In this document: positions 2,081-33,257 of the stretch, piece after piece
Numbering within the stretch: the first letter of the stretch is position 1
Layout of the letters: every line of letters begins with the position of its first letter
NCBI GenBank assembly: GCA_036480675.1
Contig: JAZGGY010000102.1
Span: 1-37,278, forward strand
Direction: 5' to 3'
Length of the DNA stretch: 37,278 nt
Source of the DNA: a bacterium
GTDB lineage: Bacteria; RBG-13-66-14; B26-G2; WVWN01
Notes under the pieces: generated by a model
Told to the model about the DNA's origin: nothing
The model's input: only the letters and a program-made list of their open reading frames with translations
Databases searched by the model: none
Program-made: the position numbers and the translations under genes

Positions 2081-4711
2081 ATGAAAAAATCGTTAATTTG
2101 GTTGGCAGTTCTCGTGGTCGCTGCTTCCGCGGCCGCTTCGGCCGAAACCGTTTTCCTGAGCGGAAGCGGCGAACCGTCGGCCGCGGCCCGCGTCGTAACG
2201 GACACCGCGACGGAAACGGTACTCACCTTCTCTATGGACGGATTCACACGGGAGAAGGAAACCGAGGGCGGCATTACGTACGACCGCGTCATCCTGCGCG
2301 AGCGCGGAACGACCGATAATATCGGCCTGCCCGAGCTCCCGGCCTTGAACGAGACGGTGATGATACCGGGCGACCGCAAGGTCAGCGTGGACATCGTCAA
2401 ATGGGACGAGGTTACGCTCAGCGGCTACAAAGTCTGGCCGTTCCAGACGCCCGCAACGGACGTCGACTTTGAACTCCCGTTCGTCCGCGACAACAAGTAC
2501 TACGAGGCGGGTTCTACCTACCCGACGGCCAAAGTCGAGCTCGGCACGCCGGCTATATTCCGCGACATCCGCGTCATCCCGCTGCGGGTTTACCCTTTCC
2601 GGTGGGACCCGGCAACGGGCGAATTGAGGGTCGCGAGGAAGATCACGGTCAAACTCAACTACTACGGCCAGGATACGGTTAACACGCTGCGGGTTACCGG
2701 GTACCGCGACCCGGACTTCGAGCCGCTATACGAGAACACCGTAGTAAACTATAAGACCGGGCATCACGGCATGGACGCGGGCGGCAACCTGGAATACCCC
2801 GAACACCTCTTCATTTGCTACCCGGACTACAAGGACGAAGCCGAAGCGCTGGCCGAGTTCTACAACAAGATGGGCGTCTACACGCTGGTAGTTACTACGA
2901 ACGAAGCCGGGACCACCAAAGAGAGTATTAAAGCCTACATCCAGACCATCTACAACAAGACGACGCCGGCGGTGCTCAAGTACGTACTGCTCGTGGGCGA
3001 TATCGACTACGTCGCAGCGGGCTATTGGCCCGGCTACAGCATGGTCGCCGACTACTGGTACTCCTGCCTGACGGGGGGCTTAGCGGACCCCTACCCCGAC
3101 GTCAACGTAGTCCGGTACAGTACTAAGGACGCCGCCAAGGTTACGTACTTCATCCAGAAGAACATAAAGTACCAGAAAGACCCGGACCTGAGCAACGACT
3201 GGCTCAACAACGCGATGCTCTGCGCCCACCGAGAAAACGCTCCCGGCAAATACGAAGGGTGCACCGAAGAAGTCGCGAATTACTCTTACTCGAAGTTCAA
3301 ACCCAACTTCATAAAGATCTACGGCTCGCAAGGAAAGCGCAATTCGGACGTCTCCAACGCCATAAACAGCGGCGTGAACATCGCCTCCTACCGCGGCCAC
3401 GGCAACGAAACCTCCTGGACCGGTTGGAGCACCTACGGCGATTACTATAGAACCAGCGACGTCCACGCCCTCACCAACGGCGACAAAACGCCCATCTGGC
3501 TCAACGTCTGCTGCCTGAACGGCAACTTCGCCTACGGCGCGGAGAACTTCATCGAGTCGAACCTGAACGCGACCGGCAAGGCCGGCGTAGCGTCCAACAG
3601 CGCCTCCGACCCCTCGTACACCGTCCCCAACCACGACTACATGAAGGAGATGTACAAGGCCATCTACGACCAGGGCATCCTGAACGCAGGCCTCGTCTCC
3701 AACTACGGCAACACCAAGCTCATCCAGATATACGGGCCGTACCATACGTACATAAAGAACGTATACATGTATATGTGGAACGGCGACCCATTCACCAAGA
3801 TCTGGATGAAGAAACCGGACAAAAAGTTGACGGCTACTCATCCGACCGAGTTCATTCCCGAACCAGGAAAAAAATTCGTCGTCACCGTTTCGGATACCAC
3901 GCGGGCGCTGGTGGAAGGCGCGTTAGTCGGCCTATATAAAAAGGACGACGTTTATTGCGCCGGCACCACCAACAGCGAAGGCAAGGTCGAGCTCGAGCCG
4001 ACGCGGCTGTTAACCGGCGAAGGCACGATGTACGTTACGGCCACGAAGGACGGCTACCTCGGCTACTGGGGCGAATGCACCCTCCAATCGGGGCAAGACG
4101 TCAAGATATCTCACTTCGTAGCCCGTAAGGCCGACGGCGGCGTACGGCTGTCCTGGAACGCGCAGCACGACGGCGAGCTTCTCGGCTTCAACCTGTACCG
4201 CCTGAAAGTCACCGCGAGCGGCGACAACGATTCGCTACGCGTGGGCGGCGACTCGGTGGCCGAAACGACGGCGTGGGCCAAAATCAACGAGGAGTTGATC
4301 GTAGGCCGCGGCCCGTACGAATACGTCGACGGCGTCGGCGAGGGTAGTTACCGTTATAAGCTCGAGGCGATCACGCGGGCCGACCCGATAATAGTCGGGC
4401 CCATCGGCGTCGACACCAAGGCGATACCCAAGGCGTTCGCCCTCAGCCAAAATTACCCGAACCCGGCCAGCGTATCGACTAAAATCAGCTTCGGCCTTCC
4501 GACCGCCACGAATAACATCAAACTCCGCATCTACGACCTCTCGGGCCGCGAGATCAAATCGATCAACGTCGGCTCGCGGTCAGCGGGCATCGTGAGCGTG
4601 GAATGGAACCTCACCGACGACACAGGTCGGTACATCCCGTCGGGCGTATACCTCTACCGCCTCGACACGCCCAGCTTCTCCGCCACAAAGCGCATGGTCG
4701 TCGTACGGTAA
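2081..4711 (+). CDS. C25-family (gingipain/PorU-like) cysteine peptidase with T9SS C-terminal sorting domain
   Basis: 876-aa ORF with AAAGGGG upstream of the ATG and an N-terminal signal peptide (LAVLVVAASAAASA). It has a gingipain-like propeptide region (GLPELPALNETVMIPG) and a His/Cys dyad context (SYRGHGNETSW ... IWLNVCCLNGNF). The C-terminus is FlgD-Ig/Por-secretion-tail-like (LSQNYPNPASVSTKISFGLP...RIYDLSGREIKSI...SGVYLYRLDT...KRMVVVR). Confidence 0.9.
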   Translation: MKKSLIWLAVLVVAASAAASAETVFLSGSGEPSAAARVVTDTATETVLTFSMDGFTREKETEGGITYDRVILRERGTTDNIGLPELPALNETVMIPGDRKVSVDIVKWDEVTLSGYKVWPFQTPATDVDFELPFVRDNKYYEAGSTYPTAKVELGTPAIFRDIRVIPLRVYPFRWDPATGELRVARKITVKLNYYGQDTVNTLRVTGYRDPDFEPLYENTVVNYKTGHHGMDAGGNLEYPEHLFICYPDYKDEAEALAEFYNKMGVYTLVVTTNEAGTTKESIKAYIQTIYNKTTPAVLKYVLLVGDIDYVAAGYWPGYSMVADYWYSCLTGGLADPYPDVNVVRYSTKDAAKVTYFIQKNIKYQKDPDLSNDWLNNAMLCAHRENAPGKYEGCTEEVANYSYSKFKPNFIKIYGSQGKRNSDVSNAINSGVNIASYRGHGNETSWTGWSTYGDYYRTSDVHALTNGDKTPIWLNVCCLNGNFAYGAENFIESNLNATGKAGVASNSASDPSYTVPNHDYMKEMYKAIYDQGILNAGLVSNYGNTKLIQIYGPYHTYIKNVYMYMWNGDPFTKIWMKKPDKKLTATHPTEFIPEPGKKFVVTVSDTTRALVEGALVGLYKKDDVYCAGTTNSEGKVELEPTRLLTGEGTMYVTATKDGYLGYWGECTLQSGQDVKISHFVARKADGGVRLSWNAQHDGELLGFNLYRLKVTASGDNDSLRVGGDSVAETTAWAKINEELIVGRGPYEYVDGVGEGSYRYKLEAITRADPIIVGPIGVDTKAIPKAFALSQNYPNPASVSTKISFGLPTATNNIKLRIYDLSGREIKSINVGSRSAGIVSVEWNLTDDTGRYIPSGVYLYRLDTPSFSATKRMVVVR

Positions 4712-19062: not shown

Positions 19063-19091
19063 TTGATTTTGATGGAGGCCAGCGTTATAAT
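19063..19091 (+). promoter_or_regulatory. candidate sigma70-type promoter (TTGATT-17-TATAAT)
   Basis: TTGATT at 19063..19068, a 17-nt spacer and a perfect TATAAT at 19086..19091, 24 nt upstream of the PorV-like ATG. AAGGGGG lies between them. Confidence 0.5.
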
Positions 19092-19114
19092 ACGCAATGT
19101 AAGGGGGTTACGAA

Positions 19115-20104
19115 ATGAGAAAATTAACGATAATAATTACCGCGATTGCGATAACGGCGGCCGTTCCGGCGTGGGCCGAAACGAAAGACGTCCCGAGATT
19201 CGTATGGCTGCTCATCGAGCCCGGCTCCCGGCCCGGCGGCCTGGGTAAAACATTTACCGGCCTCGCCGACGACGTCAACGCCTCGTACTACAACCCGGGC
19301 GGCTTGGCGCTGCTGGAGAAAAACGGCCTCTCCGTGATGCACGAGCCCCGCGGCACCGACCAACTGAAAGATATGTTTTACGACTACGTCGCGTTCTCTT
19401 ACGACACGGGTAGATTCGGTACGCTGTGCTTCGACGTAATATACAGCGACGCCGGCAAAAGCGACATTACCGACGACCAAAGCCGCGTTTTAGGCGTTTT
19501 ACATAGTTACGGCGCGGCGCCGTCTCTCTATTGGAGTTATCCTGTCCTGAAAGACCTCGGCGTCGGCGCCGGCCTGACGTACGTCTACGAACACCTTACG
19601 GACCTTCCCGGCGGCGTCGACAGTCAGCTATTGTTCAACGGCGGCGTACTTTATAAAACGCCCCTCAAGGGCCTTTCCGGCGGCCTGGCCTTCACCAACC
19701 TCGGCCCGAACAAGTCGGGCACCCGCGTTAACGAAGAGAAACAGGAGATCGAAGTAAGCTGGCCGCCGCCGCGTACGATGCGGCTGGGCCTGGCCTACAA
19801 AGTCTTCTCGAGCGACCTCAACGACCTCACCGTCGCCGCCGACGGCTCTAAGCTCTTAATGAACCTCGACGACCGCCTAAGCGAGGAGTTCGGCCAAGCG
19901 GTATATTCGGGCGGCGCCGAATACATGTATGCCAAGATGATCGCCGTACGGGCCGGTTACTACCGCGACCGGTGGGGCGAAATCGAAGGCTTAGCGTTGG
20001 GCTTCGGCTTCGCGTACAAAGGCCTCAGCTTCGACTACGCCCGCGTCCCGGAGGGCGAGGCCTTCGGCGACCGGCACCGCTTCGCCGTCGGGTACCTCTT
20101 TTAA
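19115..20104 (+). CDS. PorV/PorQ-family outer-membrane protein (T9SS shuttle-like)
   Basis: 329-aa ORF with a signal peptide (ITAAVPAWA/ET). The N-terminal motif LLIEPGSRPGGLGKTFTGLADDVNASYYNPGGLALL matches the pattern I associate with PorV/PorQ/UPF0164 barrels (ARAxGMGGAFxAxADDxxAxxxNPAGLA). The protein ends in a beta-signal-like FAVGYLF. Confidence 0.68.
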   Translation: MRKLTIIITAIAITAAVPAWAETKDVPRFVWLLIEPGSRPGGLGKTFTGLADDVNASYYNPGGLALLEKNGLSVMHEPRGTDQLKDMFYDYVAFSYDTGRFGTLCFDVIYSDAGKSDITDDQSRVLGVLHSYGAAPSLYWSYPVLKDLGVGAGLTYVYEHLTDLPGGVDSQLLFNGGVLYKTPLKGLSGGLAFTNLGPNKSGTRVNEEKQEIEVSWPPPRTMRLGLAYKVFSSDLNDLTVAADGSKLLMNLDDRLSEEFGQAVYSGGAEYMYAKMIAVRAGYYRDRWGEIEGLALGFGFAYKGLSFDYARVPEGEAFGDRHRFAVGYLF

Positions 20105-20119
20105 AGCGCGGAAATACGC

Positions 20120-21154
20120 GTGGCCCGCCCGAAGCGCATCTTCGAAAAGAGAAAAGCCGTCGTCACCGCAGCTGTGGCGGCGGCTTTAACGTCGCCGGCC
20201 GCGGCGGTGATAATCAGCGGCGGCGAACTCGCCACCGTACCCGAGGGCTTCAAGGCTGTCGCCGTCGTGGGCGAGGCCGGCCGCGGCGACGGCCAGTTCA
20301 ACGAACCTACGGCGGTCGCCTTTGACGGCGCCCGTCGCCTCTACGTCGTCGACAGCCGCAACGTACGGCTCGAGCGCTTCTTCTCCCAGGGCGACTTCGA
20401 CATGGCCTTCGGCCGCTTCGGGTGGAAGGGCGAGGGGCTCGTTTCGCCGCACGGCATCGCGGCCGACCAGGAACTTTATATATACGTAAGCGACCGCGAG
20501 CGCGGCCTGATCCACCAGTACGACATCTACAGCAAATATCTCAAATCGTACGGCCAGACGCAGAAGATAGCGACGTGGTTCGAACGGCCCGCCGGCCTCG
20601 CCGTCGACAAGCTGGGCAACCTCTGGGTCGCGGATACCGGTAACCACAAGGTCAAGCGCATCAACCTCCTGGGCGAAATCACGTTGGAGGTCGGTTACTA
20701 CGGCTCGGGACCGGGGAAACTCAACCTCCCCGCCGACGTCGCGGTAGACGAAAGCGGCGGCGTCGTCGTAGCCGACGCCGGGAACTCGCGGCTGCAGCGC
20801 TTCGACCGCTTCGGCAACCCCGTTGCCGTGATCGCCGGGAGCGGCGGCGAACAACTGCGCAATCCCTCCGGCGTTTGCCTCGACCGCTTCGGCAACATAT
20901 TCGTATCGGACACGGGAAACGACCGCGTCGTGGCGTTCGACGCCGACGGCCGGTACCTGTGCGAGTACGGGAAACTGGGCCGCGGTAAAAAGGACTTCAA
21001 CCACCCGGGAGGCCTTTGCTTCGGCGAGGACGGCAAATTATATGTAGCGGATACCTACAATAACGTAATAAAAATATTGGAAGTACAATACCGCCTCCCG
21101 GACCGCGTCGAGAAACCGCCGCGGTTCCCGGCGCCGGCGCCGAACGAAAGGTAA
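20120..21154 (+). CDS. NHL-repeat beta-propeller protein (secreted/periplasmic)
   Basis: 344-aa ORF with a GTG start and a hydrophobic N-terminus. NHL blades recur: RLYVVDSRNVRLERF, YIYVSDRERGLIHQY, LWVADTGNHKVKRINLLG, VVVADAGNSRLQRFDRFG, IFVSDTGNDRVVAFDADG, LYVADTYNNVIKIL. Confidence 0.85.
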   Translation: MARPKRIFEKRKAVVTAAVAAALTSPAAAVIISGGELATVPEGFKAVAVVGEAGRGDGQFNEPTAVAFDGARRLYVVDSRNVRLERFFSQGDFDMAFGRFGWKGEGLVSPHGIAADQELYIYVSDRERGLIHQYDIYSKYLKSYGQTQKIATWFERPAGLAVDKLGNLWVADTGNHKVKRINLLGEITLEVGYYGSGPGKLNLPADVAVDESGGVVVADAGNSRLQRFDRFGNPVAVIAGSGGEQLRNPSGVCLDRFGNIFVSDTGNDRVVAFDADGRYLCEYGKLGRGKKDFNHPGGLCFGEDGKLYVADTYNNVIKILEVQYRLPDRVEKPPRFPAPAPNER

Positions 21155-21196
21155 AAACGAAAACCGCTTGCGGCCGCGGCCCTACCAGCACCAGTA

Positions 21197-21217
21197 CCCC
21201 CGGGAGGGGGCGTTTTT
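21197..21217 (+). terminator. weak hairpin plus T tract (possible partial terminator/attenuator)
   Basis: CCCCC-ggga-GGGGG then cgTTTTT, ending 6 nt before the ATG at 21223. The stem is short, so function is uncertain. Confidence 0.3.
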
Positions 21218-21222
21218 ATATA

Positions 21223-24200
21223 ATGGCAGGATATCCCCGAAGACGACTTCTGCTTACGACCGGCCTACTGGCGGCGGCCGCGTTGGCCGACTCGCTCGGC
21301 GCGGCCGAGGAACCGCGGTGGCACGAAACGCTCGCCGCGGCGCGGGAATCTTTCCGGATAATGGAGCTCGCAACCGGCGCCGATTACGAGTTGCCGCATA
21401 AGTTTCTCTTCGTCGGTTCCGAAACGGTGCGCGTCGGCGGCGACGTCTGGGAGAGGGGCCGCGACTACCGCCTCGACTACGACGCCGGGACCTTGACCGT
21501 CCTCGCGGCGCCGCCGTACGCCGGGCCGATGGTCGTCGAGTACGAGTACCTGCCGTTCCTGCAGGCCGAGGACTACCGCGCCGCGCTCGAGGGCGAGGAC
21601 GAGGCAGAGGCGTTGGAACGCCTCGAGGAGGCGGCGGCCGCGCCCTCGGAGCTGGACGTAACCGGCTCCAAAACCTTCACCGTCACGGCCGGGAACGCGG
21701 AGGGGACCGACTTCAACCAGTCCCTCCGCCTCTCCATCCGGGGAAACGTCGGCGACGTGAAGATTACCGGCGAGATCTCGGACCAAGACTTGCCGTTGGA
21801 GGAAGGGGGCGCCACCAAGGAAATCGCAGCCGTGGACAAAATATACGTCCGCGTGGAAGGCCGGCACCTGGCGGGGACCTTTGGCGACTACGACGCCGCG
21901 ATCAGCGGCCGGCGTTTCGCCGACTACCAACAACGCCTTACGGGCATCAAAGGCGAAGCCTTCTACCCCACCTGGGGTGCCGACGCCTACGGCGCCCGGG
22001 CCCTCGGCCGCTTCGCGTCCAACGAGTTCTACGGCGTCGACGGCATCCAGGGCCCGTACCAACTCTCCGCCCGCGACGATGACGACATTATCGTACTTCC
22101 GGGAACCGAAACCGTATGGTTGAACGGCTCGAAGCTTAAAGAGAACGAGAACAACGATTACGTCGTCGACTACGACCTCGCGACCATAACCTTTACCGTC
22201 CGCCGCCCCATCTCGGCCGAGGACCGCATCGTCGTCGACTTCCAATATACCACCGAAGAATACCAGCGCAACTTCTTCGGCGGAGAAGCCGAAGGACACT
22301 TCGCCGGCGGCGCCGTCAACGTGGCCGCGCTGTACCTGCACGAGGAGGACAACCGCGCCCGCGCCTTCTTCGGCCTCGACGATTATTACCGCAAATTGCT
22401 GGAGGGAGCCGGCGACGACCAGGAGCGCGCGCGGGTGGTCGCGCTGGACGAAAACGGCGAGATAATTTACGAGTACGTCGGCGAAGGCCAGGGGGAATAC
22501 ACGCGCCAATGGGACCCGGTGGAAGGTAAATACGTATACGTCTACGTCGGCCCGGGCAACGGCGACTACATGCCGAGGATGATCCTGCTTCCCTTCCCGA
22601 AGCGGCAAAGCCTCTTCGACGTAAACGCCGTCATCGCGCCGGCGCGCATTATCACCGTCGAGGCCGAGGGCGCGACCAGCGACTTCGACGCCAATACTTT
22701 TTCGACGGTAAGTGACCGCGACAACGGCGGCCTGGCCGGCTCCGCCGCGGCCACCGTCCGGCTGGACGCGCTCGAGCCCCTCGAACGCGTGGGCAAGCTC
22801 GAAGTCCGGCACGTCGTCGAGCGGAGAGACACCCGCTTCCGGAACCTGGGCCGCGAGGACGGCGTCGTGTTCCTGCAGCGATGGGACCTCGACGACGAGG
22901 TCGCGGGCCTTGCCCACCCGCCGGGCTACAAGCTTTACGAGACGACGGTTACCGAGCGGCCCGTCCCGTCCCTCACGGCATCCGGAACGTACGGCGCTAT
23001 CCGCCAACAGTACGTCGGCCTCTCGGCAAACGGTTATTCGGGACAACGGGGCAAAAGGGCCGCGGCCTCGCTGAGTTGGGAACCCGAACGCTGGCCGCAC
23101 GTCGCGTACGACTTCAACCACGTGCGCCGTCACGGCCCGCGGTATACGGGAGCGTTCGAGACCGACGACGAATCGGTGGCCAAAAGCGCATTCACCGACG
23201 ACGAGAATACGCGGCGCGAACAGAGCGGCGAGGTCTCCTATTCCGTTTGGCGGCTCAGCCCGTACGTCCGCGTCTACGACAAGAAGCGACGCGCCGACTA
23301 CGAAATAGACGGCGCCCCCGACGAGGGGACGCTCGAGCAAGAGCTAGAGGTCGGGACGGGCGTACGACCCGCGGCGGGATGGAACGTCCGGTTCGGCCAC
23401 ACCGCGGGCCGCGGCGAATTGGTCGAAGACCAAGCTTACGTCCCCCACTACCGCAAGAACGAAGAGCACGTCGCTACCACGTACGACGCCCCCGGTTTAA
23501 TCGATCTCAGCGCCGAGTACACCAAAATAATAAAGGATTTCGCCCCCGCGGACGTGGCCGACGTCGACTCCGACCTCTCGCTGCTCGAGTTTTACTACAC
23601 GCCGCTGGAGCGCGCGCTGGCGCTGAGAACGCGCTACGAGCTCAACAGCATCCAAGAACTCGAACGCGAAGAGATATTCGAGGTCGCACGCGACGGCGAC
23701 GGCGACTACCGCCGCGAAGTCGATCCCAAGAACCCGAACCGCTATGTCTACATCTACGACCCCGACGACCCGGAAGCGATTTATATAAAGACGTACAGAT
23801 ATACCGGCCGGGCGTACCGCGCCCTCGAACCGGACCTCACCGTCAGCCTCGCCGTGCTCCCCTACCGCTACAACGACGTGCGCGGCCGAGACGCCGAGCG
23901 CAACCCGTGGCTGGACGCCGCGGCCGCGGACCTTTACGTCCACGCTCGGAACAGCTCCACGTCGCCGCGGCGCTTAGCCATCGCCACCCTCCAAGACCTC
24001 CTGGCCGCGGACGCCCTCGATAGCAGCCTGGAACAACGTTACACCCTCACCATATTACCGGTCAACCGGCGGCTCACCGGCTGGGCGCGCTACTCGGTCA
24101 AGGACGACCTCGACCGAACCGTCGCTTCGCGCCAACGTAGACGGTGGCGGACGTCGCGCTACGGCGAAGTCGTCGCCGAGCCGGTACCGCGGCTGACGGT

Positions 24201-24672
24201 CCAGGCCGACGTCGACCGCATCCGGGAATGGGAATCGGTAACGGAGGAGAACGTGCCCCGCCCCGAGAACACGAAAGCCCTGGAGATGATATACGGCCTG
24301 GAACCCACCTACACGGTTACGTCCCGGCTCGACCTCGCGGCCCGCGGCGAGGTCTCGCGACGGCACGAGGAGTACAACGGCGCTCCCACCCACTTCAAGG
24401 GCACGAGGGTGAAGCCGGAGGCCACCTACCGCCTGACGGAATCCGGCGTCGCGAACGCGTGGTACGACCGGACGGAGTACGACGTTTCGGGCTACAGCGG
24501 GTCCGAGACGGTGCTGCTGCGCATCCCGGGAGTAACGCACAAGTGGGAGGCCAGCGTAAATAAGGGCGTAGGCCGATACGTTACGCTGATCTTCACGTAC
24601 GACGGCGAGAAAAAACCCGACGTGGGAGAGACGCGGCACCGGGGCCGAATAGACTTAAACATATACTTCTAA
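21223..24672 (+). CDS. large predicted outer-membrane beta-barrel protein, possibly SprA/Sov-like (T9SS translocon family) at about half the canonical length
   Basis: 1149-aa ORF with a signal peptide (RRRLLLTTGLLAAAALA) and Tyr/Asp/Arg-rich amphipathic beta-strand composition. The C-terminal beta-signal is GRIDLNIYF. Two copies of a ~50-aa module occur (aa 61-109 and 289-342: G-S/T-E-T-V ... DY-x-h-DYD-x-x-T-h-T ... VV-D/E-F/Y-x-Y). Stretches such as DFNQSLRLSIRGNVGDVKITGEISDQD and RLTGIKGEAF resemble my recollection of the Flavobacterium SprA N-terminal region. That homology is from memory and untested. Confidence 0.55.
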   Translation: MAGYPRRRLLLTTGLLAAAALADSLGAAEEPRWHETLAAARESFRIMELATGADYELPHKFLFVGSETVRVGGDVWERGRDYRLDYDAGTLTVLAAPPYAGPMVVEYEYLPFLQAEDYRAALEGEDEAEALERLEEAAAAPSELDVTGSKTFTVTAGNAEGTDFNQSLRLSIRGNVGDVKITGEISDQDLPLEEGGATKEIAAVDKIYVRVEGRHLAGTFGDYDAAISGRRFADYQQRLTGIKGEAFYPTWGADAYGARALGRFASNEFYGVDGIQGPYQLSARDDDDIIVLPGTETVWLNGSKLKENENNDYVVDYDLATITFTVRRPISAEDRIVVDFQYTTEEYQRNFFGGEAEGHFAGGAVNVAALYLHEEDNRARAFFGLDDYYRKLLEGAGDDQERARVVALDENGEIIYEYVGEGQGEYTRQWDPVEGKYVYVYVGPGNGDYMPRMILLPFPKRQSLFDVNAVIAPARIITVEAEGATSDFDANTFSTVSDRDNGGLAGSAAATVRLDALEPLERVGKLEVRHVVERRDTRFRNLGREDGVVFLQRWDLDDEVAGLAHPPGYKLYETTVTERPVPSLTASGTYGAIRQQYVGLSANGYSGQRGKRAAASLSWEPERWPHVAYDFNHVRRHGPRYTGAFETDDESVAKSAFTDDENTRREQSGEVSYSVWRLSPYVRVYDKKRRADYEIDGAPDEGTLEQELEVGTGVRPAAGWNVRFGHTAGRGELVEDQAYVPHYRKNEEHVATTYDAPGLIDLSAEYTKIIKDFAPADVADVDSDLSLLEFYYTPLERALALRTRYELNSIQELEREEIFEVARDGDGDYRREVDPKNPNRYVYIYDPDDPEAIYIKTYRYTGRAYRALEPDLTVSLAVLPYRYNDVRGRDAERNPWLDAAAADLYVHARNSSTSPRRLAIATLQDLLAADALDSSLEQRYTLTILPVNRRLTGWARYSVKDDLDRTVASRQRRRWRTSRYGEVVAEPVPRLTVQADVDRIREWESVTEENVPRPENTKALEMIYGLEPTYTVTSRLDLAARGEVSRRHEEYNGAPTHFKGTRVKPEATYRLTESGVANAWYDRTEYDVSGYSGSETVLLRIPGVTHKWEASVNKGVGRYVTLIFTYDGEKKPDVGETRHRGRIDLNIYF

Positions 24673-26537
24673 TGCTAAAGAGTTGGGCCATACTAGTCGT
24701 ACTCGCTCCCGCCGCGGCGGCCACGCCGGCGGCCGCCGAGGTGGCGGTCGAGGGCAACGTCGCATTCGGCGACGCCGAAATCGAGGCCGCGGCGTATCGG
24801 GACGGCGCCGTCGACGCCGGCGCCGTGGAGCGGCTCTATCTACGCGCCGGGTACCTGGACGCGCGCGTCGAGCTGACCGTCGAAGAAGGCGTCCCGCCGA
24901 CGCTCGCGATAACGGAGGGAGCGCGGTACCGCGTCGCCGCGCTCGACGTGGACAACGATTCGCCGCTCAGCCGCGACGAAGTAGCAGCGTTCATCCCGTT
25001 CGGCCCGGGCGACGCGCCGTCGCCGCCCGACCTCCGGGAGGGTTTAATCGCGCTGTTAGCCAAACTGGCGGATCGGGGATATCTGCGCGCCGAAGCGGAA
25101 TACGCCGTAACCGACGCCGGCGCGGCGCGGGTGGACGTCGCCGTGGCGGTGCGCGCGGGCGAAAGGTACGCCGCCGGCGAGATCCACCTCGTCGGCGTTC
25201 GCCGCCGAGACGAGGAGGCCATACGCGAAAACCTCGAAACCCGGCCCGGCAAGCCGCTGCACGAGCGGGCCCTCGCGCGCGACCTCCTCACCATCATCGA
25301 CTACTATCGCGAGCGCGGCTATCCCACGGCCTCCGCCCGTCCCCGCGCTTTCGAGCTCGCCGAGCGCTACAAAGAGATTGACTTCGCCGTAATAGTCGAG
25401 CCGGGCGACAAAGTAACCGTAACGGCCATCGACGTCGTCGGAAACCGCCGCACCCGCGACGGCGTCATCCGGCGCGAAATTTTAACCGTCCCCGGCGAAC
25501 CGTACGACATCGAAAGACTGCGCAAGAGCGCGCGCCGGATATATAACCTCAAATACTTCGAGGCCGAGCCCGACGTCGAGCTGGTCGACGCCGAGGCGGG
25601 CCGGCTTCGCGTAACGGTGGTGGAGCGGCCGACGTACCGCGTTACCGGCGCTTTGGCGTACGAGCCGCGGCAAGGCGAGACCGCCGCGGCCGTGATAGGC
25701 GAAATGGACGCGCGCCTCGCCAACCTCTTCGGCACCGGCCGGGAGCTCGACGCCCGCTACCGCCGCCTGGCCGTCGAATCGACCGACGCCGCGGCGGCGT
25801 ACTACGAGCCGTGGATAGGCGGCGTCGACCTCTTCGCGCAGCCGAGCGGCCTTTACAAAGAGCGGGTAACGTACCGCAAGGCGACCGGCGAGCTCGCGCT
25901 CGGCACCCATCCCCTCGTGGACTTGACGGTGGCCGCCGGCGGCGGCTTCGACCGGGTGTGGACGGAAAACGCGAGCCGGAAGTACAAAGTCTTCACCTGG
26001 GCGACGTACGACAGCCGGGATTACTTCGACAACCCGCGGCGGGGTTGGCAAGCGTTCGGCCGCGTGGAGCTCGGCGTCAAGGAATACCTGGCCGACGGCT
26101 TCCGGGAGCGGGTGCCGCGGCTGAAGCTCGACGCGTGGCGCTTTTGGCCCACGACTCGCAACCAGGTCCTCGCGGCGCGCGGCCGCGCCGAGGGCTTCGT
26201 CTCGCAGCGGACGAGTCTGGACGAAGTTTTCCCGCTGGGCGGGTACGCCGACCTCCGCGGCTTCAAAGAGGAGCAGTTCCTAACGGACCGCTACGTTCTC
26301 GCGACCGTCGAGTATCGTTTCTTGACCGGCCGCGGCAGCAGGCTGTTCCTCTTCGTCGACTCGGCCTATCGGCACCTCAAAACCGAAAAGACGTTCGACG
26401 AGGGTTTCAACGTGGGCTACGGGGCCGGCTTCCGGGCGGCGACGGCCGTCGGAACGTACGGCGTAGACTACGGCCTGGCCGCCGGCGATAACCCCCAAGA
26501 GGGTAAAATCCACGTCTCCATAACGCAGGAGTTTTAA
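24672..26537 (+). CDS. Omp85-family protein (BamA/TamA-like, short POTRA array)
   Basis: 621-aa ORF whose ATG overlaps the upstream stop (TAATG at 24670..24674). It has a signal peptide and POTRA-like units (IHLVGVRRRDEEAIRENLETRPGKPLHERALARDLLTIIDYYRERGYPTA; IDVVGNRRTRDGVIRREILTVPGEPYDIERLRKSARRIYNLKYF). The C-terminal surface-antigen barrel ends GKIHVSITQEF. At this length there is room for about 3 POTRA domains rather than the 5 of canonical BamA. Confidence 0.87.
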   Translation: MLKSWAILVVLAPAAAATPAAAEVAVEGNVAFGDAEIEAAAYRDGAVDAGAVERLYLRAGYLDARVELTVEEGVPPTLAITEGARYRVAALDVDNDSPLSRDEVAAFIPFGPGDAPSPPDLREGLIALLAKLADRGYLRAEAEYAVTDAGAARVDVAVAVRAGERYAAGEIHLVGVRRRDEEAIRENLETRPGKPLHERALARDLLTIIDYYRERGYPTASARPRAFELAERYKEIDFAVIVEPGDKVTVTAIDVVGNRRTRDGVIRREILTVPGEPYDIERLRKSARRIYNLKYFEAEPDVELVDAEAGRLRVTVVERPTYRVTGALAYEPRQGETAAAVIGEMDARLANLFGTGRELDARYRRLAVESTDAAAAYYEPWIGGVDLFAQPSGLYKERVTYRKATGELALGTHPLVDLTVAAGGGFDRVWTENASRKYKVFTWATYDSRDYFDNPRRGWQAFGRVELGVKEYLADGFRERVPRLKLDAWRFWPTTRNQVLAARGRAEGFVSQRTSLDEVFPLGGYADLRGFKEEQFLTDRYVLATVEYRFLTGRGSRLFLFVDSAYRHLKTEKTFDEGFNVGYGAGFRAATAVGTYGVDYGLAAGDNPQEGKIHVSITQEF

Positions 26538-26588: not shown

Positions 26589-27362
26589 ATGGCGCGCCTC
26601 TTCCAGATATTAGGGGTGGCAGCGGCTTTCTTCGTCGGCGCATTCGCCGGTAACTTCTACCACCTCGTCGTACGCCGCGGGTCGGGCGGCCGCTTCCACG
26701 TAACGCTGCCGCCGGCCTGCCCCTCCTGCGGCCGGGCGGAACGACGTATATGGATGCTGCCCATACTCTGGTATCCGTTACTGCGGGGTCGCTGCCCGGG
26801 CTGCGGCTTCCGCTACCACAAAAACCTCGTCCTGTTGGAAGCGACGGGCGGCGCCGTCGCGGCGTTGGCGTTCTACTACTACGGCTTTTCCTTCGCGTTC
26901 GCGACGACCTTCGCTTTCTGCTTTTTCTTCCTCTTAAATTATTGGGTGGACTTCCGCTACGGCGTCCTGGTGCCGCAGCTCTATCTCCCTGCGCTCGCCG
27001 CGGGGCTTGGGCTTTCTTTTTTACCCGGGCCGCCCACTCCCGCCGGCGCTCTCGCCGGAGGCGTCGTGGGCGGCGGCCTGTTGTTGGCGGCGCGTCCCGG
27101 CCGCGGCCTATTCTCCGAGAACGCGCGCGGCGCCGAACGCCAGCTCGCGTGCGTAGCGCTGGTCGGGGTTTTCCTGGGATGGCAGAGCGCGCTGTTCGTT
27201 CTGGCCGCCGCGGCGATCGCGGCGTTGGTCCTGCCGTTGGTCGCGCGCCGCGTGTTCGGCGGCGACCCGGAAACGGCCTTCGGATTCGCGGTCCTCGCCG
27301 CGGCGTTAGCGCTGGCTTTCTACCACGCCGACATAACGTCCTGGTACTTCCGCATCCGCTAG
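26589..27362 (+). CDS. prepilin peptidase (A24)-like membrane protein, divergent
   Basis: 257-aa polytopic ORF. It has the N-terminal four-Cys motif typical of PilD (CPSCGRAERRIWMLPILWYPLLRGRCPGCGFRYHKNLVLLE). A first-Asp-like site is present (NYWVDFRYGVLVP). The second catalytic G-x-G-D-x-K motif is not visible (RGAERQLACVALVGVFLGW instead). Confidence 0.6.
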   Translation: MARLFQILGVAAAFFVGAFAGNFYHLVVRRGSGGRFHVTLPPACPSCGRAERRIWMLPILWYPLLRGRCPGCGFRYHKNLVLLEATGGAVAALAFYYYGFSFAFATTFAFCFFFLLNYWVDFRYGVLVPQLYLPALAAGLGLSFLPGPPTPAGALAGGVVGGGLLLAARPGRGLFSENARGAERQLACVALVGVFLGWQSALFVLAAAAIAALVLPLVARRVFGGDPETAFGFAVLAAALALAFYHADITSWYFRIR

Positions 27363-27436: not shown

Positions 27437-28711
27437 GTGGGTACGTACGAGCTCATAGTATACGGCTGCCAGATGAACGACTACGACGGCGAGAAGCTGG
27501 CCGGCATAATGGAGGAGGCCGGCTACCGGCCCGCGCCTCCCGGAGACGTCGCCGACGTCGTCTTGGTTTACACCTGCGCCGTACGGGAGTCAGCCACGAC
27601 CCGGGCGTTAGGCCGTATCACGTCGCTCGCGCGGTACAAGAAGCGCAAGGCGGATACCGTCATCGGCGTCGGCGGTTGTTGGCCCGCGGTCGAGAAGAAC
27701 GTCATCGAGAGCTCCTGCCCCCACGTCGACTTTACCTTCGGGACGACAAACCTGGAAGACGTCCCCGCGACGGTAGCGGGCATCCGCGGGCAGGCCGCGT
27801 CGCCGCTGCCGGACGAGATTCGGCTTCGCCGGACGGCCTGGCCTCGAGCCAACGTATCGATTATGCGGGGTTGCGACAACTTCTGCGCCTATTGCGTCGT
27901 GCCGTACGCCCGCGGCCCGGAGGTTTGCCGCCCGATCGACGACGTACTGCGCGAAGTGGAAGAGCTGGTCGGGGCCGGCTTTAAGGACATCACGCTCATA
28001 GGTCAGAACGTAAACTCGTACCGGCACGGCGTTACGTCCTTCGCGGAGCTTCTCCTGAAGGCCGACGCGCTGTGCGACGGCGTCTTCCTCCGTTTTACCA
28101 CCAATCACCCCCGCGACGTCAACGACGAAACGGTGGCCGCGCTCGGCCGGTGCCGCAACGTCGCCCGGCACCTCCACCTTCCGCTGCAGAGCGGCTCGGA
28201 CGCCGTATTGCACGCGATGAACCGCGACTACGACGTCAGCCGCTACCTCGACGTCGTCTCGAAGGTGCGGAAAGCGGTCCCGGGTATCTGCTTGACGACG
28301 GACGTACTGGTCGGCTTCCCCGGCGAGACGGAGGACGACTTCGAGGCTACGCTCAGCGTCGTCGAGCGCGTACGCTACGACAGCGCGTACGTCTTCATGT
28401 ACTCGCCTCGAGCCGGGACGGCGGCCGCGGCGCTGGCCGACGACGTGCCGCGTCCCGAAAAAGTGCGCCGCCTACAAACGGTCGGCGCGCGGCAACGCGC
28501 CATTGCGCTGGAAATAAACGAAGGGATGGTGGGGAGTGAACAACCGGCCTTAGTGGAAGGTCCGAGCCGCAAGAAGGCCGGCGAATACGCCGGCAGGTTG
28601 AGCGAAAATAAAATCGTAAATTTCGCGGGCCGGGCGCGCCCGGGCGAATTCATACGCTTAAAAATTACGAAGGCTTCGTCTTGGACGCTAAGAGGCGAGC
28701 CGGCGCCGTGA
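27437..28711 (+). CDS. miaB: tRNA-i6A37 methylthiotransferase MiaB
   Basis: 424-aa ORF with a GTG start. It has the UPF0004 N-domain (VYGCQMNDYDGEKLAG ... VLVYTCAVRE), the radical SAM site RGCDNFCAYCVVPYARG and a C-terminal TRAM domain (ALVEGPSRKKAGEYAGRLSENKIVNF...IRLKITKASSWTLRGE). Confidence 0.92.
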   Translation: MGTYELIVYGCQMNDYDGEKLAGIMEEAGYRPAPPGDVADVVLVYTCAVRESATTRALGRITSLARYKKRKADTVIGVGGCWPAVEKNVIESSCPHVDFTFGTTNLEDVPATVAGIRGQAASPLPDEIRLRRTAWPRANVSIMRGCDNFCAYCVVPYARGPEVCRPIDDVLREVEELVGAGFKDITLIGQNVNSYRHGVTSFAELLLKADALCDGVFLRFTTNHPRDVNDETVAALGRCRNVARHLHLPLQSGSDAVLHAMNRDYDVSRYLDVVSKVRKAVPGICLTTDVLVGFPGETEDDFEATLSVVERVRYDSAYVFMYSPRAGTAAAALADDVPRPEKVRRLQTVGARQRAIALEINEGMVGSEQPALVEGPSRKKAGEYAGRLSENKIVNFAGRARPGEFIRLKITKASSWTLRGEPAP

Positions 28712-31128: not shown

Positions 31129-31163
31129 ATATAATCTACGACGGGATTTGAGGCCGACCGCGC

Positions 31164-32777: not shown

Positions 32778-32806
32778 GTCTATTTACCACGTGCGGCGAG
32801 GGCGAT

Positions 32807-33211
32807 TTACCATTTCGGTTCTTCTTCGATTTCGTATGACGTCCCGCAATAAGGGCAGGTTACCACCACGGCCCCGGCCTTGACGTCGATATTGTCTTTC
32901 GCCAGCGTGGCCCCGCAGGATTGGCACTTCAACCGCTCGAGCGACAGATCGCCCGTTAAATCTATTTGCTGGACGATGGTCTGCGGTTTCTCGGCCCGGT
33001 ACTTCTTGTAGGAGCGGTACATCAGTACGCCGGCGCCGGCTATGAGTAACAGGCCGATGACGTTAAGGCATACGCCCACGCCCACCCGGCTGCCGCCCTG
33101 CTCGCCGGCCTCGGCGGCGGTGGAGGCCATAATCCACAGAACGCCGAAGAAGATAAGCACCAGCGCCAAAACTACCATCGGTACGCCGAATATGCAGCCG
33201 CTCAATTTCAT
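32807..33211 (-). CDS. membrane-anchored zinc-ribbon protein (function unknown)
   Basis: I prefer ATG 33209..33211; the track uses TTG at 33217. There are two hydrophobic helices (VPMVVLALVLIFFGVLWIMA; VCLNVIGLLLIAGAGVLMY). A C-terminal CxxC-N22-CxxC ribbon follows (LKCQSCGATLAKDNIDVKAGAVVVTCPYCGTSY). It lies 29 nt upstream of the DUF2207-like gene. Confidence 0.7.
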   Translation of the reverse strand: MKLSGCIFGVPMVVLALVLIFFGVLWIMASTAAEAGEQGGSRVGVGVCLNVIGLLLIAGAGVLMYRSYKKYRAEKPQTIVQQIDLTGDLSLERLKCQSCGATLAKDNIDVKAGAVVVTCPYCGTSYEIEEEPKW

Positions 33212-33257
33212 AGTCAAACGCCGCCGTATTTATGACCTAAAATGCACTTATTACGTA

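What the first reader, a model, noticed from the sequence alone, without database searches (positions are those of the whole stretch)
19063..26537. T9SS-like outer-membrane gene cluster: PorV-like, NHL propeller, giant barrel and a translationally coupled short Omp85
Four same-strand genes follow a consensus-like promoter (TTGATT-17-TATAAT). The gaps are 15 nt and 68 nt, and the last junction is a 1-nt overlap (TAATG at 24670-24674). All four products carry signal peptides. Three are predicted outer-membrane barrels ending in aromatic beta-signals (GYLF, NIYF, TQEF). Established knowledge: in Bacteroidota the T9SS translocon SprA works with the PorV shuttle, and cargo carries a C-terminal sorting domain such as the one on the C25 peptidase at 2081-4711. 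Omp85 proteins with about 3 POTRA domains (TamA-like) normally partner with TamB, which is absent from this cluster. Tight coupling of an 1149-aa barrel to a dedicated short Omp85 is not an arrangement I recognise. It suggests a dedicated insertase/partner pair or a two-barrel export module (inference).
Basis: partly seen in the sequence, partly recalled or inferred. Interest (0 to 1): 0.68.

Follow-up and report, generated by a model that had tools for sequence, protein, structure and literature searches.

The report
Half-size SprA-like barrel with own Omp85
The four genes are real and form a conserved outer-membrane module of uncultured bacteria related to Bacteroidota: a PorV-like barrel, a propeller protein, a giant barrel that looks like a half-size type IX secretion pore, and its own BamA-like partner. 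Nobody appears to have described this arrangement.

Summary
Four same-strand genes (19115-26537) follow a promoter-like site that is conserved in relatives, with the stated gaps and the TAATG overlap.

- **A** is a PorV/PorQ-family protein.
- **B** is an exported six-bladed NHL propeller.
- **C** (1149 aa) has no Pfam or NCBIfam family. Its AlphaFold model is confident and shows about 36-39 long strands. Its best PDB neighbours are the four SprA chains (the T9SS translocon). 34 of 42 family members hit the SprA profile weakly, always in the same ~90-residue module.
- **D** is BamA-like, not TamA-like. It has four POTRA domains, not about three, and a 16-strand barrel.

The C family is very large (7074 clusters at 50% identity) and was found only in FCB-superphylum genomes. 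Of 66 species-level loci, 36 carry NHL-C-Omp85. In Eisenbacteria, Zixibacteria and TA06 this trio closes a porU-porV-M6(CTD)-DUF5683x2 cluster. The C-linked Omp85s form their own clade and co-diverge with C (r = 0.93).

Most likely this is a cap-less, SprA-related channel for CTD cargo with a dedicated Omp85. Two things are unresolved: whether D is also the only BamA of this genome, and whether a canonical SprA coexists. I rate it a new variant of a known kind.

The parts
19063..19091 (+). Sigma-70-like promoter, TTGATT-17-TATAAT, 23 nt upstream of the start of gene A. An AAGGGGG ribosome-binding site lies between them.
   Evidence: The scan found a 10 of 12 match. Both hexamers and the spacing are conserved in L007, L088 and L008, and L001 has TTGACT-17-TATAAT at the same place.
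19115..20104 (+). Gene A: a 329-aa PorV/PorQ-family outer-membrane barrel with a signal peptide and a C-terminal GYLF.
   Evidence: NCBIfam NF033709 scores 164 bits against a cutoff of 90. The PorV equivalog scores 79 against 250 and PorQ 42 against 220. The only significant PDB sequence hit is F. johnsoniae PorV, 6h3i_F, E = 1.2e-9.
20120..21154 (+). Gene B: a 344-aa exported six-bladed NHL beta-propeller without a beta-signal.
   Evidence: PF01436 NHL scores 138.5 bits in 6 stretches. PDB hits are NHL propellers, E = 2e-44. Orthologues sit directly upstream of the barrel gene in 52 of 80 loci. Many of them have lipoprotein-type signals.
21197..21220 (+). Terminator-like hairpin CCCCCGGGAGGGGG followed by a T-run that ends 2 nt before the ATG of gene C.
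   Evidence: Found by the scan. It is identical in L007, L088 and L008. L001 has a different hairpin plus T-run at the same place. The fold of the whole spacer is no better than shuffled sequence.
21223..24672 (+). Gene C: a 1149-aa giant outer-membrane beta-barrel from a large unannotated family distantly related to the T9SS translocon SprA. It has a signal peptide, a small N-terminal beta domain (40-109), about 36-39 long strands (143-1148), two conserved inserts (271-346 and 382-460) and a C-terminal NIYF.
   Evidence: No Pfam hit. The AlphaFold model has pLDDT 85.9 and pTM 0.77. The top four Foldseek hits are SprA chains, E = 3e-12 to 5e-9. TIGR04189 hits residues 291-384 at E = 1e-6, and 34 of 42 family members hit the same model region. 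The family has 7074 clusters at 50% identity.
24672..26537 (+). Gene D: a 621-aa BamA-like Omp85 with a signal peptide, four POTRA domains (23-83, 85-163, 165-245, 250-317), a 16-strand barrel (322-620) and a C-terminal TQEF. Its start overlaps the stop of gene C by 1 nt.
   Evidence: Pfam POTRA and Omp85 hits. TIGR03303 scores 158.8 against a cutoff of 297, and TamA scores 27 against 625. The AlphaFold model has pLDDT 90.3. All top 50 Foldseek hits are BamA. D belongs to a clade of Omp85s found next to C-family genes.
2081..4711 (+). C25-family peptidase with a T9SS type A C-terminal sorting domain. It lies outside the reported cluster and is a likely cargo or a PorU-like sortase relative.
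   Evidence: PF01364 scores 167.8 bits. TIGR04183 scores 41.3 bits against a cutoff of 23. The PorU model scores 90 bits against a cutoff of 420.

Best explanation
The region encodes a T9SS-related outer-membrane module of an uncultured FCB-superphylum bacterium. Records label its nearest relatives as Zixibacteria or Coatesbacteria MAGs.

**Proposed roles.**
- **C** is a cap-less barrel about half the size of the T9SS translocon SprA. It most likely forms the outer-membrane channel through which Sec-exported proteins with a C-terminal sorting domain leave the periplasm. The C25 peptidase at 2081-4711 is one such protein.
- **A**, a PorV-family barrel, would act as the carrier or partner that PorV is for SprA.
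- **B**, the NHL propeller, is a fixed partner of the barrel. My guess is a plug, lid or cargo-handling subunit of the very wide lumen.
- **D** belongs to a BamA-derived Omp85 lineage that travels with the barrel gene. It most likely acts as a dedicated insertase for, or a stable partner of, the giant barrel.

**Shown.**
- Gene structure and promoter conservation.
- Domain identities.
- The predicted folds.
- The size and distribution of the family.
- The conserved NHL-barrel-Omp85 order, and its embedding in porU-porV clusters in other phyla.
- The separate Omp85 clade and its co-divergence with the barrel.

**Inferred.**
- Homology of the whole barrel to SprA.
- Channel function and cargo.
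- The roles of A, B and D.
For: **Gene identities.**
- A passes NF033709, and its only PDB sequence match is PorV.
- C has no Pfam family, and none of its 80 homologues has one either.

**Fold of C.**
- The AlphaFold model is confident (pLDDT 85.9, pTM 0.77) and shows about 36-39 long antiparallel strands.
- The top four Foldseek PDB hits are SprA chains 8gl8_A, 8gl6_A, 6h3i_A and 6h3j_A, with E = 3e-12 to 5e-9. The next hits are generic 22-30-strand barrels at E of about 1e-7 or weaker.
- The SprA profile TIGR04189 hits 34 of 42 diverse family members, always at model positions of about 600-698. The best E-value is 5.6e-10.

**Distribution and gene order.**
- At least 526 species-level genome loci were found. 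The best 80 carry FCB-lineage or unclassified labels (one reads 'uncultured Chromatiales').
- Of 66 loci assessable on both sides, 36 carry NHL-C-Omp85, 21 carry C alone, 6 carry NHL only and 3 carry Omp85 only.
- C-alone loci are concentrated in one large clade.
- In at least 14 loci from Eisenbacteria, Zixibacteria, TA06 and others, the trio is the 3' end of a cluster that begins with PorU. PorU scores 434-475 bits against a cutoff of 420.
  - PorU is followed by a PorV-family gene, an M6-like protein with a T9SS CTD, and two DUF5683 genes.

**The Omp85.**
- D is BamA-like with four POTRA domains and 16 strands.
- All barrel-linked Omp85s form one clade apart from the sampled BamAs, which include Gemmatimonadetes BamAs.
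- Pairwise distances of barrel and Omp85 correlate at r = 0.93 over 37 loci.
- Some orthologues are far too divergent to be a general BamA. They score 19-65 bits on TIGR03303, and one is only 498 aa.
- Tight coupling recurs in relatives. The genes overlap by 1 nt in L007, L088, L080 and L083, and by 4 nt in L030, L058 and L065. These come from my own ORF calls except L088.
Against: - Sequence similarity to SprA is confined to one module of about 55-95 residues. That module also weakly resembles phage tail-tube families.
- Neither a profile of the family nor residues 140-500 of C finds SprA in the PDB by sequence.
- TM-scores to SprA are only about 0.24.
- The SprA family tests fail: 26 bits against a cutoff of 200, no SprA_N domain, and half the length.
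- The family is found in Calditrichota, Ignavibacteria and Rhodothermales. A paper reports canonical SprA in all FCB phyla it sampled except Chlorobiota (PMC12611786). C is therefore probably a parallel system, not the SprA orthologue.
- I could not test whether the genome has gldKLMN, canonical SprA or a second BamA.
- In the Coatesbacteria genome CP070633.1, an intact D orthologue follows only the last 300 residues of the barrel gene. If that truncation is real, D has a role without C.
- No coordinates were available, so barrel closure, the exact strand count, any lateral opening and the side on which the inserts lie are unverified.
Confidence: 0.5

Rival explanations
1. D is simply the housekeeping BamA of this lineage. 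The adjacency would then repeat what is already known in Bacteroidota, where T9SS components are encoded at the bamA locus. C would be an ordinary, if large, BAM client or accessory.
For: - D is BamA-like in fold, and BamA is its best NCBIfam hit at 158.8 bits.
- Papers report T9SS genes at the bamA locus in Bacteroidota (PMC12611786, PMC12773653).
- I could not show a second Omp85 in the genome.
- In CP070633.1 an intact D follows a truncated barrel gene.
Against: - D scores below the BamA cutoff, has four POTRA domains rather than five, and is not followed by skp, lpxD or fabZ.
- The orthologues form a clade apart from the sampled BamAs, including Gemmatimonadetes BamAs.
- Some orthologues score only 19-65 bits on the BamA model, and one is 498 aa. 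That is implausible for an essential general insertase.
- The Omp85 is absent next to C in the whole Ignavibacteria/Bacteroidota-type clade.
Confidence: 0.15
2. The NHL-barrel-Omp85 trio is not a secretion pore. It would be another kind of outer-membrane complex, for example an uptake channel with a propeller lid like SusCD, or a structural or surface-layer anchor like the 30-strand SlpA. The SprA resemblance would then reflect only giant-barrel geometry plus one shared small domain.
For: - SprA similarity is local in sequence, and TM-scores are low. SlpA and SDBC barrels reach similar TM-scores of 0.23-0.25.
- Most KSB1, Calditrichota and Latescibacterota loci have the trio without any PorU or PorV gene within 10 kb.
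- The partner propeller is a lipoprotein in many lineages, as SusD-like lids are.
Against: - Foldseek E-values favour SprA by four to five orders of magnitude.
- There is no TonB plug or receptor domain.
- The trio is linked repeatedly and collinearly to PorU, a PorV-family gene and CTD-protein genes in several phyla, and to a PorV-family gene here.
- The distribution found so far is dominated by FCB lineages, the superphylum that holds T9SS.
Confidence: 0.2
3. This is a two-barrel export module. D would be the translocase, as TpsB is in two-partner secretion, moving the NHL propeller or cargo to the cell surface. C would serve as the docking platform.
For: - Omp85 proteins with POTRA domains can translocate partner proteins, as in two-partner secretion (established knowledge).
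- NHL and the Omp85 co-occur strongly: 36 loci have both, 21 have neither, and only 9 have one of the two.
Against: - D resembles BamA, not TpsB. ShlB-type POTRA gives only a minor hit, and all top 50 fold hits are BamA.
- B has no TPS domain.
- Rhodothermales-type loci keep NHL and the barrel without the Omp85.
Confidence: 0.1

Closest known systems
SprA/Sov, the T9SS outer-membrane translocon (F. johnsoniae; PDB 6H3I, 6H3J, 8GL6, 8GL8; TIGR04189)
   Same: - Both are single-chain giant barrels. SprA has 36 strands, and C shows about 36-39 strands by DSSP.
- SprA is the best fold match and the only recurrent profile match for C.
- Both are found in the FCB superphylum.
- C-family genes are linked to PorV-family and PorU genes.
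   Different: - C is half the length, 1149 aa against about 2300-2400 aa. It therefore lacks most of the extracellular cap, which exceeds 150 kDa in SprA (PMC12611786).
- C scores 26 bits against a cutoff of 200 and has no SprA_N domain. Sequence similarity is limited to one module.
- C has an NHL propeller and an Omp85 as fixed neighbours. I do not know of either for sprA (own knowledge).
- The family is found in phyla that are reported to have canonical SprA.
PorV and the PorU-PorV pair of the T9SS attachment complex
   Same: - A passes the PorV/PorQ family model and matches PorV 6h3i_F.
- In extended clusters of other phyla, a PorU gene and a PorV-family gene precede the trio in the same order as porU-porV in P. 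gingivalis (gene order in P. gingivalis from own knowledge).
   Different: - A fails the PorV and PorQ equivalog cutoffs, at 79 against 250 and 42 against 220.
- No PorU gene is adjacent in this window. The C25 protein 15 kb upstream scores only 90 against 420 on the PorU model.
BamA and the BAM complex, including the Bacteroidota BamADGH complex and the T9SS genes at the bamA locus
   Same: - D has a 16-strand Omp85 barrel with POTRA domains, and all its best fold matches are BamA.
- There is precedent for genetic linkage between T9SS and bamA (PMC12611786, PMC12773653).
   Different: - D has four POTRA domains and 621 aa.
- D scores below the BamA cutoff.
- skp, lpxD and fabZ do not follow it.
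- D belongs to a separate clade that co-diverges with the giant barrel.
TamA-TamB translocation and assembly module
   Same: Both pair a short Omp85 paralogue, encoded in an operon, with a protein of about 1100-1300 aa that is rich in beta structure.
   Different: - D scores 27 bits against a cutoff of 625 on TamA, has four POTRA domains, and no TamA appears among the top 50 fold hits.
- C is a barrel with a signal peptide and a beta-signal. It is not an inner-membrane-anchored TamB/AsmA-like groove, and it has no DUF490 or AsmA hit.
LptD-LptE (a large barrel with a partner protein inside its lumen); analogy only
   Same: Both pair a large barrel with a small exported partner encoded next to it. 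That partner is often a lipoprotein. In LptDE the barrel needs an Omp85 machine to fold around the partner (established knowledge).
   Different: C has no OstA/LptD domain. The partner here is an NHL propeller, and the barrel is far larger than the 26 strands of LptD.
NCBIfam 'PorU2 / PorV2 / T9SS-dependent M6-like inactivated metalloprotease' set (NF052324, NF052325, NF052323)
   Same: The upstream half of the extended clusters holds a PorU, a PorV-family gene and an M6-like CTD protein. These give significant but sub-cutoff hits to those models.
   Different: - All scores are below the equivalog cutoffs. The PorU genes pass the classical PorU model instead.
- No NCBIfam model covers the DUF5683 genes, the NHL partner, the giant barrel or its Omp85.

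Membership tests
SprA/Sov T9SS translocon (TIGR04189, PF14349) | Whole-protein score at or above the TIGR04189 cutoff of 200 bits | tested here: not met
   C scores 26.2 bits at E = 1e-6, in one stretch only: residues 291-384 against model positions 604-698. Seven of eight other members scanned individually score 17-31 bits in the same stretch; one has no SprA hit.
SprA/Sov T9SS translocon (TIGR04189, PF14349) | Pfam SprA N-terminal domain present | tested here: not met
   No Pfam family hits C at E up to 0.1. The precomputed Pfam field is empty for all 80 homologues.
SprA/Sov T9SS translocon (TIGR04189, PF14349) | About 2300-2400 residues with an extracellular cap above 150 kDa | tested here: not met
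   C is 1149 aa, and family members are 987-1278 aa. The cap size is taken from PMC12611786.
SprA/Sov T9SS translocon (TIGR04189, PF14349) | Single-chain transmembrane barrel of 36 strands | tested here: inconclusive
   DSSP on the AlphaFold model lists 39 strands of 8 or more residues between 143 and 1148. This is compatible with a barrel of 36-38 strands.
SprA/Sov T9SS translocon (TIGR04189, PF14349) | SprA is the nearest solved structure | tested here: met
   Foldseek ranks 1-4 are SprA chains, E = 3.2e-12 to 5.3e-9. TM-scores are low at about 0.24.
SprA/Sov T9SS translocon (TIGR04189, PF14349) | Works with PorV docked at a lateral opening, and is powered by the GldLM/PorLM motor | not testable with these tools
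   Only gene adjacency to a PorV-family gene is shown. The rest of the genome could not be searched for gldKLMN.
PorV/PorQ family (NF033709) | Score at or above the subfamily cutoff of 90 bits | tested here: met
   A scores 164.4 bits over residues 32-327. PorV 6h3i_F is its only significant PDB sequence hit.
PorV proper (NF033710) or PorQ proper (NF033711) | Score at or above the equivalog cutoffs of 250 and 220 bits | tested here: not met
   A scores 79 bits on PorV and 42.3 bits on PorQ.
BamA (TIGR03303) | Score at or above 297 bits, five POTRA domains, and the bamA-skp-lpxD/fabZ gene context | tested here: not met
   D scores 158.8 bits and has four POTRA domains. An A24-like peptidase gene and miaB follow it.
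BamA (TIGR03303) | A 16-strand Omp85 barrel with BamA as the nearest structure | tested here: met
   The model has 16 strands over residues 322-620. All top 50 Foldseek hits are BamA.
TamA (NF047950) | Score at or above 625 bits, three POTRA domains, and an adjacent TamB partner | tested here: not met
   D scores 27.4 bits and has four POTRA domains. There is no DUF490 or AsmA protein in the cluster.
NHL-repeat beta-propeller (PF01436) | Six NHL repeats above the Pfam cutoff | tested here: met
   B scores 138.5 bits in 6 stretches. NHL propellers in the PDB match at E = 2e-44.
   C has no Pfam hit. TonB-dependent receptors and LptD appear only as weaker, generic barrel matches in Foldseek.

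The most novel reading that the evidence does not exclude
The 1149-aa family is a minimal, possibly ancestral, T9SS-type translocon. It would be a roughly 36-strand SprA-like barrel without the big cap, gated by an NHL propeller instead, served by a PorV-family carrier and built by its own BamA paralogue. In lineages such as this one it could be the only pore for CTD-bearing cargo. It might work without the canonical SprA, or even without the GldKLMN machinery.
Probability: 0.25. Interest if true: 0.85.

Novelty: new variant of a known kind. Interest (0 to 1): 0.72.

Why it matters
The giant barrel belongs to a very large family with no Pfam or NCBIfam model and, in eight full-text searches, no paper. 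It has 7074 clusters at 50% identity and loci in at least 526 species genomes.

If it is a compact relative of SprA, three things follow.
- It gives a much smaller system for studying how T9SS-type pores recognise and release cargo.
- It bears on how the 36-strand translocon evolved.
- It would explain how many uncultured FCB phyla export their abundant CTD proteins.

The obligate-looking pairing with a BamA-derived Omp85 would be a natural example of a dedicated insertase for one very large barrel. That bears on the open question of how such barrels are assembled.

At the least, these genes are now called 'hypothetical protein' and 'BamA' in thousands of MAGs. They could be annotated as a recognisable module.

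Tried and rejected
- **A second Omp85 in the same genome.** I looked for one by matching contig lengths in the homologue tables. Nothing linked to the Coatesbacteria genomes.
- **The best non-orthologous Omp85 hit, P0254.** It turned out to be a Myxococcota-type BamA in a bamA-skp-fabZ-lpxA context. The last homologue search therefore gave no answer.
- **Sequence searches of the PDB.** A profile of the family and residues 140-500 of C both failed to find SprA. I could not run a profile-profile comparison because no SprA sequence was obtainable with these tools.
- **The 1117-aa neighbour in L004.** It is not a paralogue of C. It is an M6-like CTD protein.
- **Conserved neighbours in the 'barrel alone' clade.** They are ogt and uvrD, which reflects lineage synteny and not functional partnership.
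- **TamA/TamB, TonB-dependent receptor and LptD readings.** All were rejected on domain and fold evidence.
- **A simple inversion to explain the truncated barrel gene in CP070633.1.** Rejected. The neighbouring minus-strand NHL gene is only 32% identical, so it is a paralogue, and no N-terminal barrel fragment lies nearby.
- **Literature.** Eight full-text searches found no description of the family or of the trio.
- **A failed tool call.** The first search for related loci attempt, with the 62-sequence alignment, failed for lack of a conserved stretch. A 12-sequence alignment worked.

Full report

Yes. The window has about 63% G+C and a housekeeping context: SHMT is upstream on the other strand, and an A24-like peptidase and MiaB are downstream.

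The four ORFs are 19115-20104 (A, 329 aa), 20120-21154 (B, 344 aa), 21223-24672 (C, 1149 aa) and 24672-26537 (D, 621 aa). The gaps are 15 and 68 nt, and the C/D junction is TAATG. The 691-aa ORF on the opposite strand inside C is a high-GC shadow ORF.

TTGATT-17-TATAAT at 19063-19091 matches 10 of 12 consensus positions. Both hexamers and the spacing are kept in L007, L088 and L008, although the upstream DNA of L008 has otherwise diverged. The Coatesbacteria locus L001 (43% identity in C) has TTGACT-17-TATAAT at the same place. The promoter call therefore rests on conservation, not only on a consensus match.

All four N-termini read as signal peptides. A, C and D end in GYLF, NIYF and TQEF.

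A terminator-like hairpin (CCCCCGGGAGGGGG plus a T-run, 21197-21220) ends 2 nt before the ATG of C. It is identical in three relatives, and L001 has a different hairpin plus T-run at the same place. The fold of the whole spacer is no better than shuffled sequence.

**2. What the four proteins are.**

*A.* It passes the NCBIfam PorV/PorQ family model (164 bits against a cutoff of 90). It fails the PorV and PorQ equivalogs. Its only significant PDB sequence match is F. johnsoniae PorV.

*B.* It is a six-bladed NHL propeller. Its orthologues carry either plain signal peptides or lipoprotein-type signals.

*C.* It has no Pfam hit at all.
- With a 62-sequence alignment, AlphaFold gives a confident model (pLDDT 85.9, pTM 0.77).
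- The model shows a small N-terminal beta domain (40-109), helices, and then 39 DSSP strands of 8 or more residues from 143 to 1148.
- Two inserts interrupt the strands, at 271-346 and 382-460.
- Counting strands back from the periplasmic C-terminus places both inserts outside the cell.
- The four best Foldseek matches in the PDB are the SprA chains of the T9SS translocon (E = 3e-12 to 5e-9). The next matches, at E of about 1e-7 or weaker, are generic barrels such as TonB-dependent receptors, MtrB and SlpA. TM-scores are low throughout, about 0.24.
- At sequence level the SprA profile TIGR04189 hits C at E = 1e-6 (26 bits). It hits 34 of 42 diverse family members, with a best E-value of 5.6e-10. 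The hit always pairs insert 1 of C with model positions of about 600-698.
- That module also weakly resembles phage tail-tube families.
- Neither a family profile nor residues 140-500 of C finds SprA among PDB sequences.

*D.* It has POTRA and Omp85 domains.
- BamA is its best NCBIfam hit (158.8 bits against a cutoff of 297). TamA scores only 27 bits.
- Its model (pLDDT 90.3) has four POTRA domains and a 16-strand barrel.
- All top 50 fold matches are BamA.

**3. The family and its neighbourhood.**

C-family proteins are 987-1278 aa. All 80 are unnamed or called hypothetical, and none has a Pfam domain.

A profile search of 1.84 billion cluster representatives finds 7074 clusters at E up to 1e-3 and 2818 at E up to 1e-30. 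A scan of one genome per species confirms at least 526 loci. Among the best 80, the records name these groups:
- Zixibacteria, KSB1, Latescibacterota, Eisenbacteria, TA06, LCP-89 and Calditrichota;
- Ignavibacteria, Rhodothermales and other Bacteroidota MAGs.

The closest record (93% identity) is labelled Zixibacteria. More distant ones are labelled Coatesbacteria.

I called ORFs in 87 loci and built profiles from the window and four annotated loci. Of 66 loci assessable on both sides:
- 36 carry NHL-C-Omp85;
- 21 carry C alone;
- 6 carry NHL only;
- 3 carry Omp85 only.

In a neighbour-joining tree the 'alone' loci are concentrated in one large clade of Ignavibacteria/Bacteroidota-type MAGs. 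Their conserved neighbours are ogt and uvrD. The trio is the rule elsewhere.

In at least 14 loci the trio is the 3' end of a larger collinear cluster: PorU, a PorV-family gene, an M6-like protein with a T9SS CTD, two DUF5683 genes, NHL, C and the Omp85. The PorU genes pass the curated PorU model at 434-475 bits against a cutoff of 420.

This window carries a reduced version, PorV-like, NHL, C and Omp85. So do L001, L007, L008 and L088. A C25 peptidase with a type A sorting domain lies 15 kb upstream.

**4. The Omp85 partner.**

All Omp85s linked to a C-family gene, including D, form one clade. It is separate from the sampled BamAs, which include Gemmatimonadetes BamAs. Most of those BamAs come from outside the FCB group. 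Part of the separation could therefore reflect species phylogeny.

The Omp85 tree mirrors the barrel tree. Pairwise distances correlate at r = 0.93 over 37 loci, and the mean divergence is equal. Some orthologues are too divergent to be a general BamA: 19-65 bits on the BamA model, and one of only 498 aa. Tight coupling of the two genes, by overlaps of 1 or 4 nt, recurs in several lineages.

I could not find out whether this genome has a further, canonical BamA. The word-indexed homologue searches did not link any second Omp85 to the complete Coatesbacteria genomes. My last search went to what proved to be a Myxococcota-type BamA.

One observation cuts the other way. In the Coatesbacteria genome CP070633.1, an intact D orthologue (68% identity) follows only the last 300 codons of the barrel gene. 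That fragment is 72% identical to C and keeps the 1-nt overlap. Its conservation suggests a recent break or an assembly error. If the truncation is real, D has a role without C.

**5. How it most likely works.**

*Shown:* a PorV-family barrel, an exported propeller, a giant barrel whose nearest relative by every available measure is SprA, and a BamA-derived Omp85. In many phyla these are inherited together and are physically joined to a PorU gene and a PorV-family gene.

*Inferred:*
- C is a cap-less outer-membrane channel of the SprA kind for CTD cargo.
- A is its carrier or partner, as PorV is for SprA (mechanism from PMC10994853).
- B fills, gates or caps the wide lumen, or handles cargo.
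- D inserts the barrel or stays bound to it.

I put this at 0.5.

*Rivals:*
- D is the housekeeping BamA, and the linkage repeats the known T9SS-bamA locus linkage of Bacteroidota (0.15).
- The trio is a non-secretory complex and the SprA likeness is generic (0.2).
- D is a TpsB-like exporter of B or of cargo (0.1).

**6. Comparison with what is known.**

C is not a member of the SprA family. It fails the score, domain and size tests. The family is found in phyla reported to have canonical SprA (PMC12611786), so it is probably a parallel system.

D is neither a BamA equivalog nor TamA. A is a PorV/PorQ-family member but is neither PorV nor PorQ proper.

NCBIfam has recent models for a 'PorU2/PorV2/M6-like' set. 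These resemble the upstream half of the extended clusters below their cutoffs. No model covers the NHL partner, the barrel or its Omp85. Eight full-text literature searches found no description of the family or of the trio.

**7. Verdict.**

T9SS relatedness and the conserved barrel-Omp85 pairing hold. The TamA analogy does not. The dedicated-insertase idea remains inference.

This is a new variant of a known kind. Interest is 0.72.

Noticed in passing
window 21197-21220: A terminator-like hairpin plus T-run lies between the NHL gene and the giant barrel gene and ends 2 nt before the ATG, leaving no room for a Shine-Dalgarno site. It is identical in L007, L088 and L008, and L001 has a different hairpin plus T-run at the same place. 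It may set a higher level of the PorV-like and NHL proteins than of the barrel and Omp85.
   Followed up: partly
L089 7099-8001 (Coatesbacteria genome CP070633.1): Only the last 300 codons of the barrel gene are present (72% identical to residues 850-1149). They still overlap an intact Omp85 orthologue by 1 nt. No PorV-like gene, orthologous NHL gene or N-terminal barrel fragment lies nearby. This is either a recent truncation or rearrangement, or an assembly error.
   Followed up: partly
window 26589-27362 and 27437-28711: A prepilin-peptidase-like membrane protein follows the cluster. Its A24 N-terminal domain passes the Pfam cutoff, but its catalytic domain is below it. MiaB comes next. The pair is also present downstream of the cluster in L001 and L088; L089 keeps the peptidase-like gene but not MiaB.
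   Followed up: no
window 29758-33217 (minus strand): A radical-SAM/SPASM enzyme sits with an adjacent 537-aa ORF and a 136-aa ORF that have no clear family. The same three genes are conserved in L001 and L088. This could be a peptide-maturation cassette.
   Followed up: no
L004 1-1908, L019 815-3388, L023 704-3277, L073 734-3310: In some extended clusters the PorV-family gene encodes 857-920 residues. The PorV barrel is at the C-terminus, and a long extra N-terminal region is of unknown nature.
   Followed up: no
window 22090-22374 (C residues 291-384) and the same module in relatives: The one module shared with SprA, with the conserved DY-x-I-DY-x-x-G-x-ITF motif, also gives weak hits to phage tail-tube and distal-tail protein families.
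   Followed up: partly
L004 5291-7026; L006 4974-6922; similar in L041, L043, L048, L050, L066, L071, L084: Two tandem DUF5683-type genes, one of them only weakly matching, always sit between the M6-like CTD protein and the NHL gene in the extended clusters. They are absent from this window.
   Followed up: partly
window 2081-4711: A C25 peptidase with a propeptide, a CarboxypepD_reg-like domain and a T9SS type A CTD. It is related to the PorU sortase only weakly (90 bits against a cutoff of 420). It is more likely a gingipain-like cargo than the sortase.
   Followed up: partly
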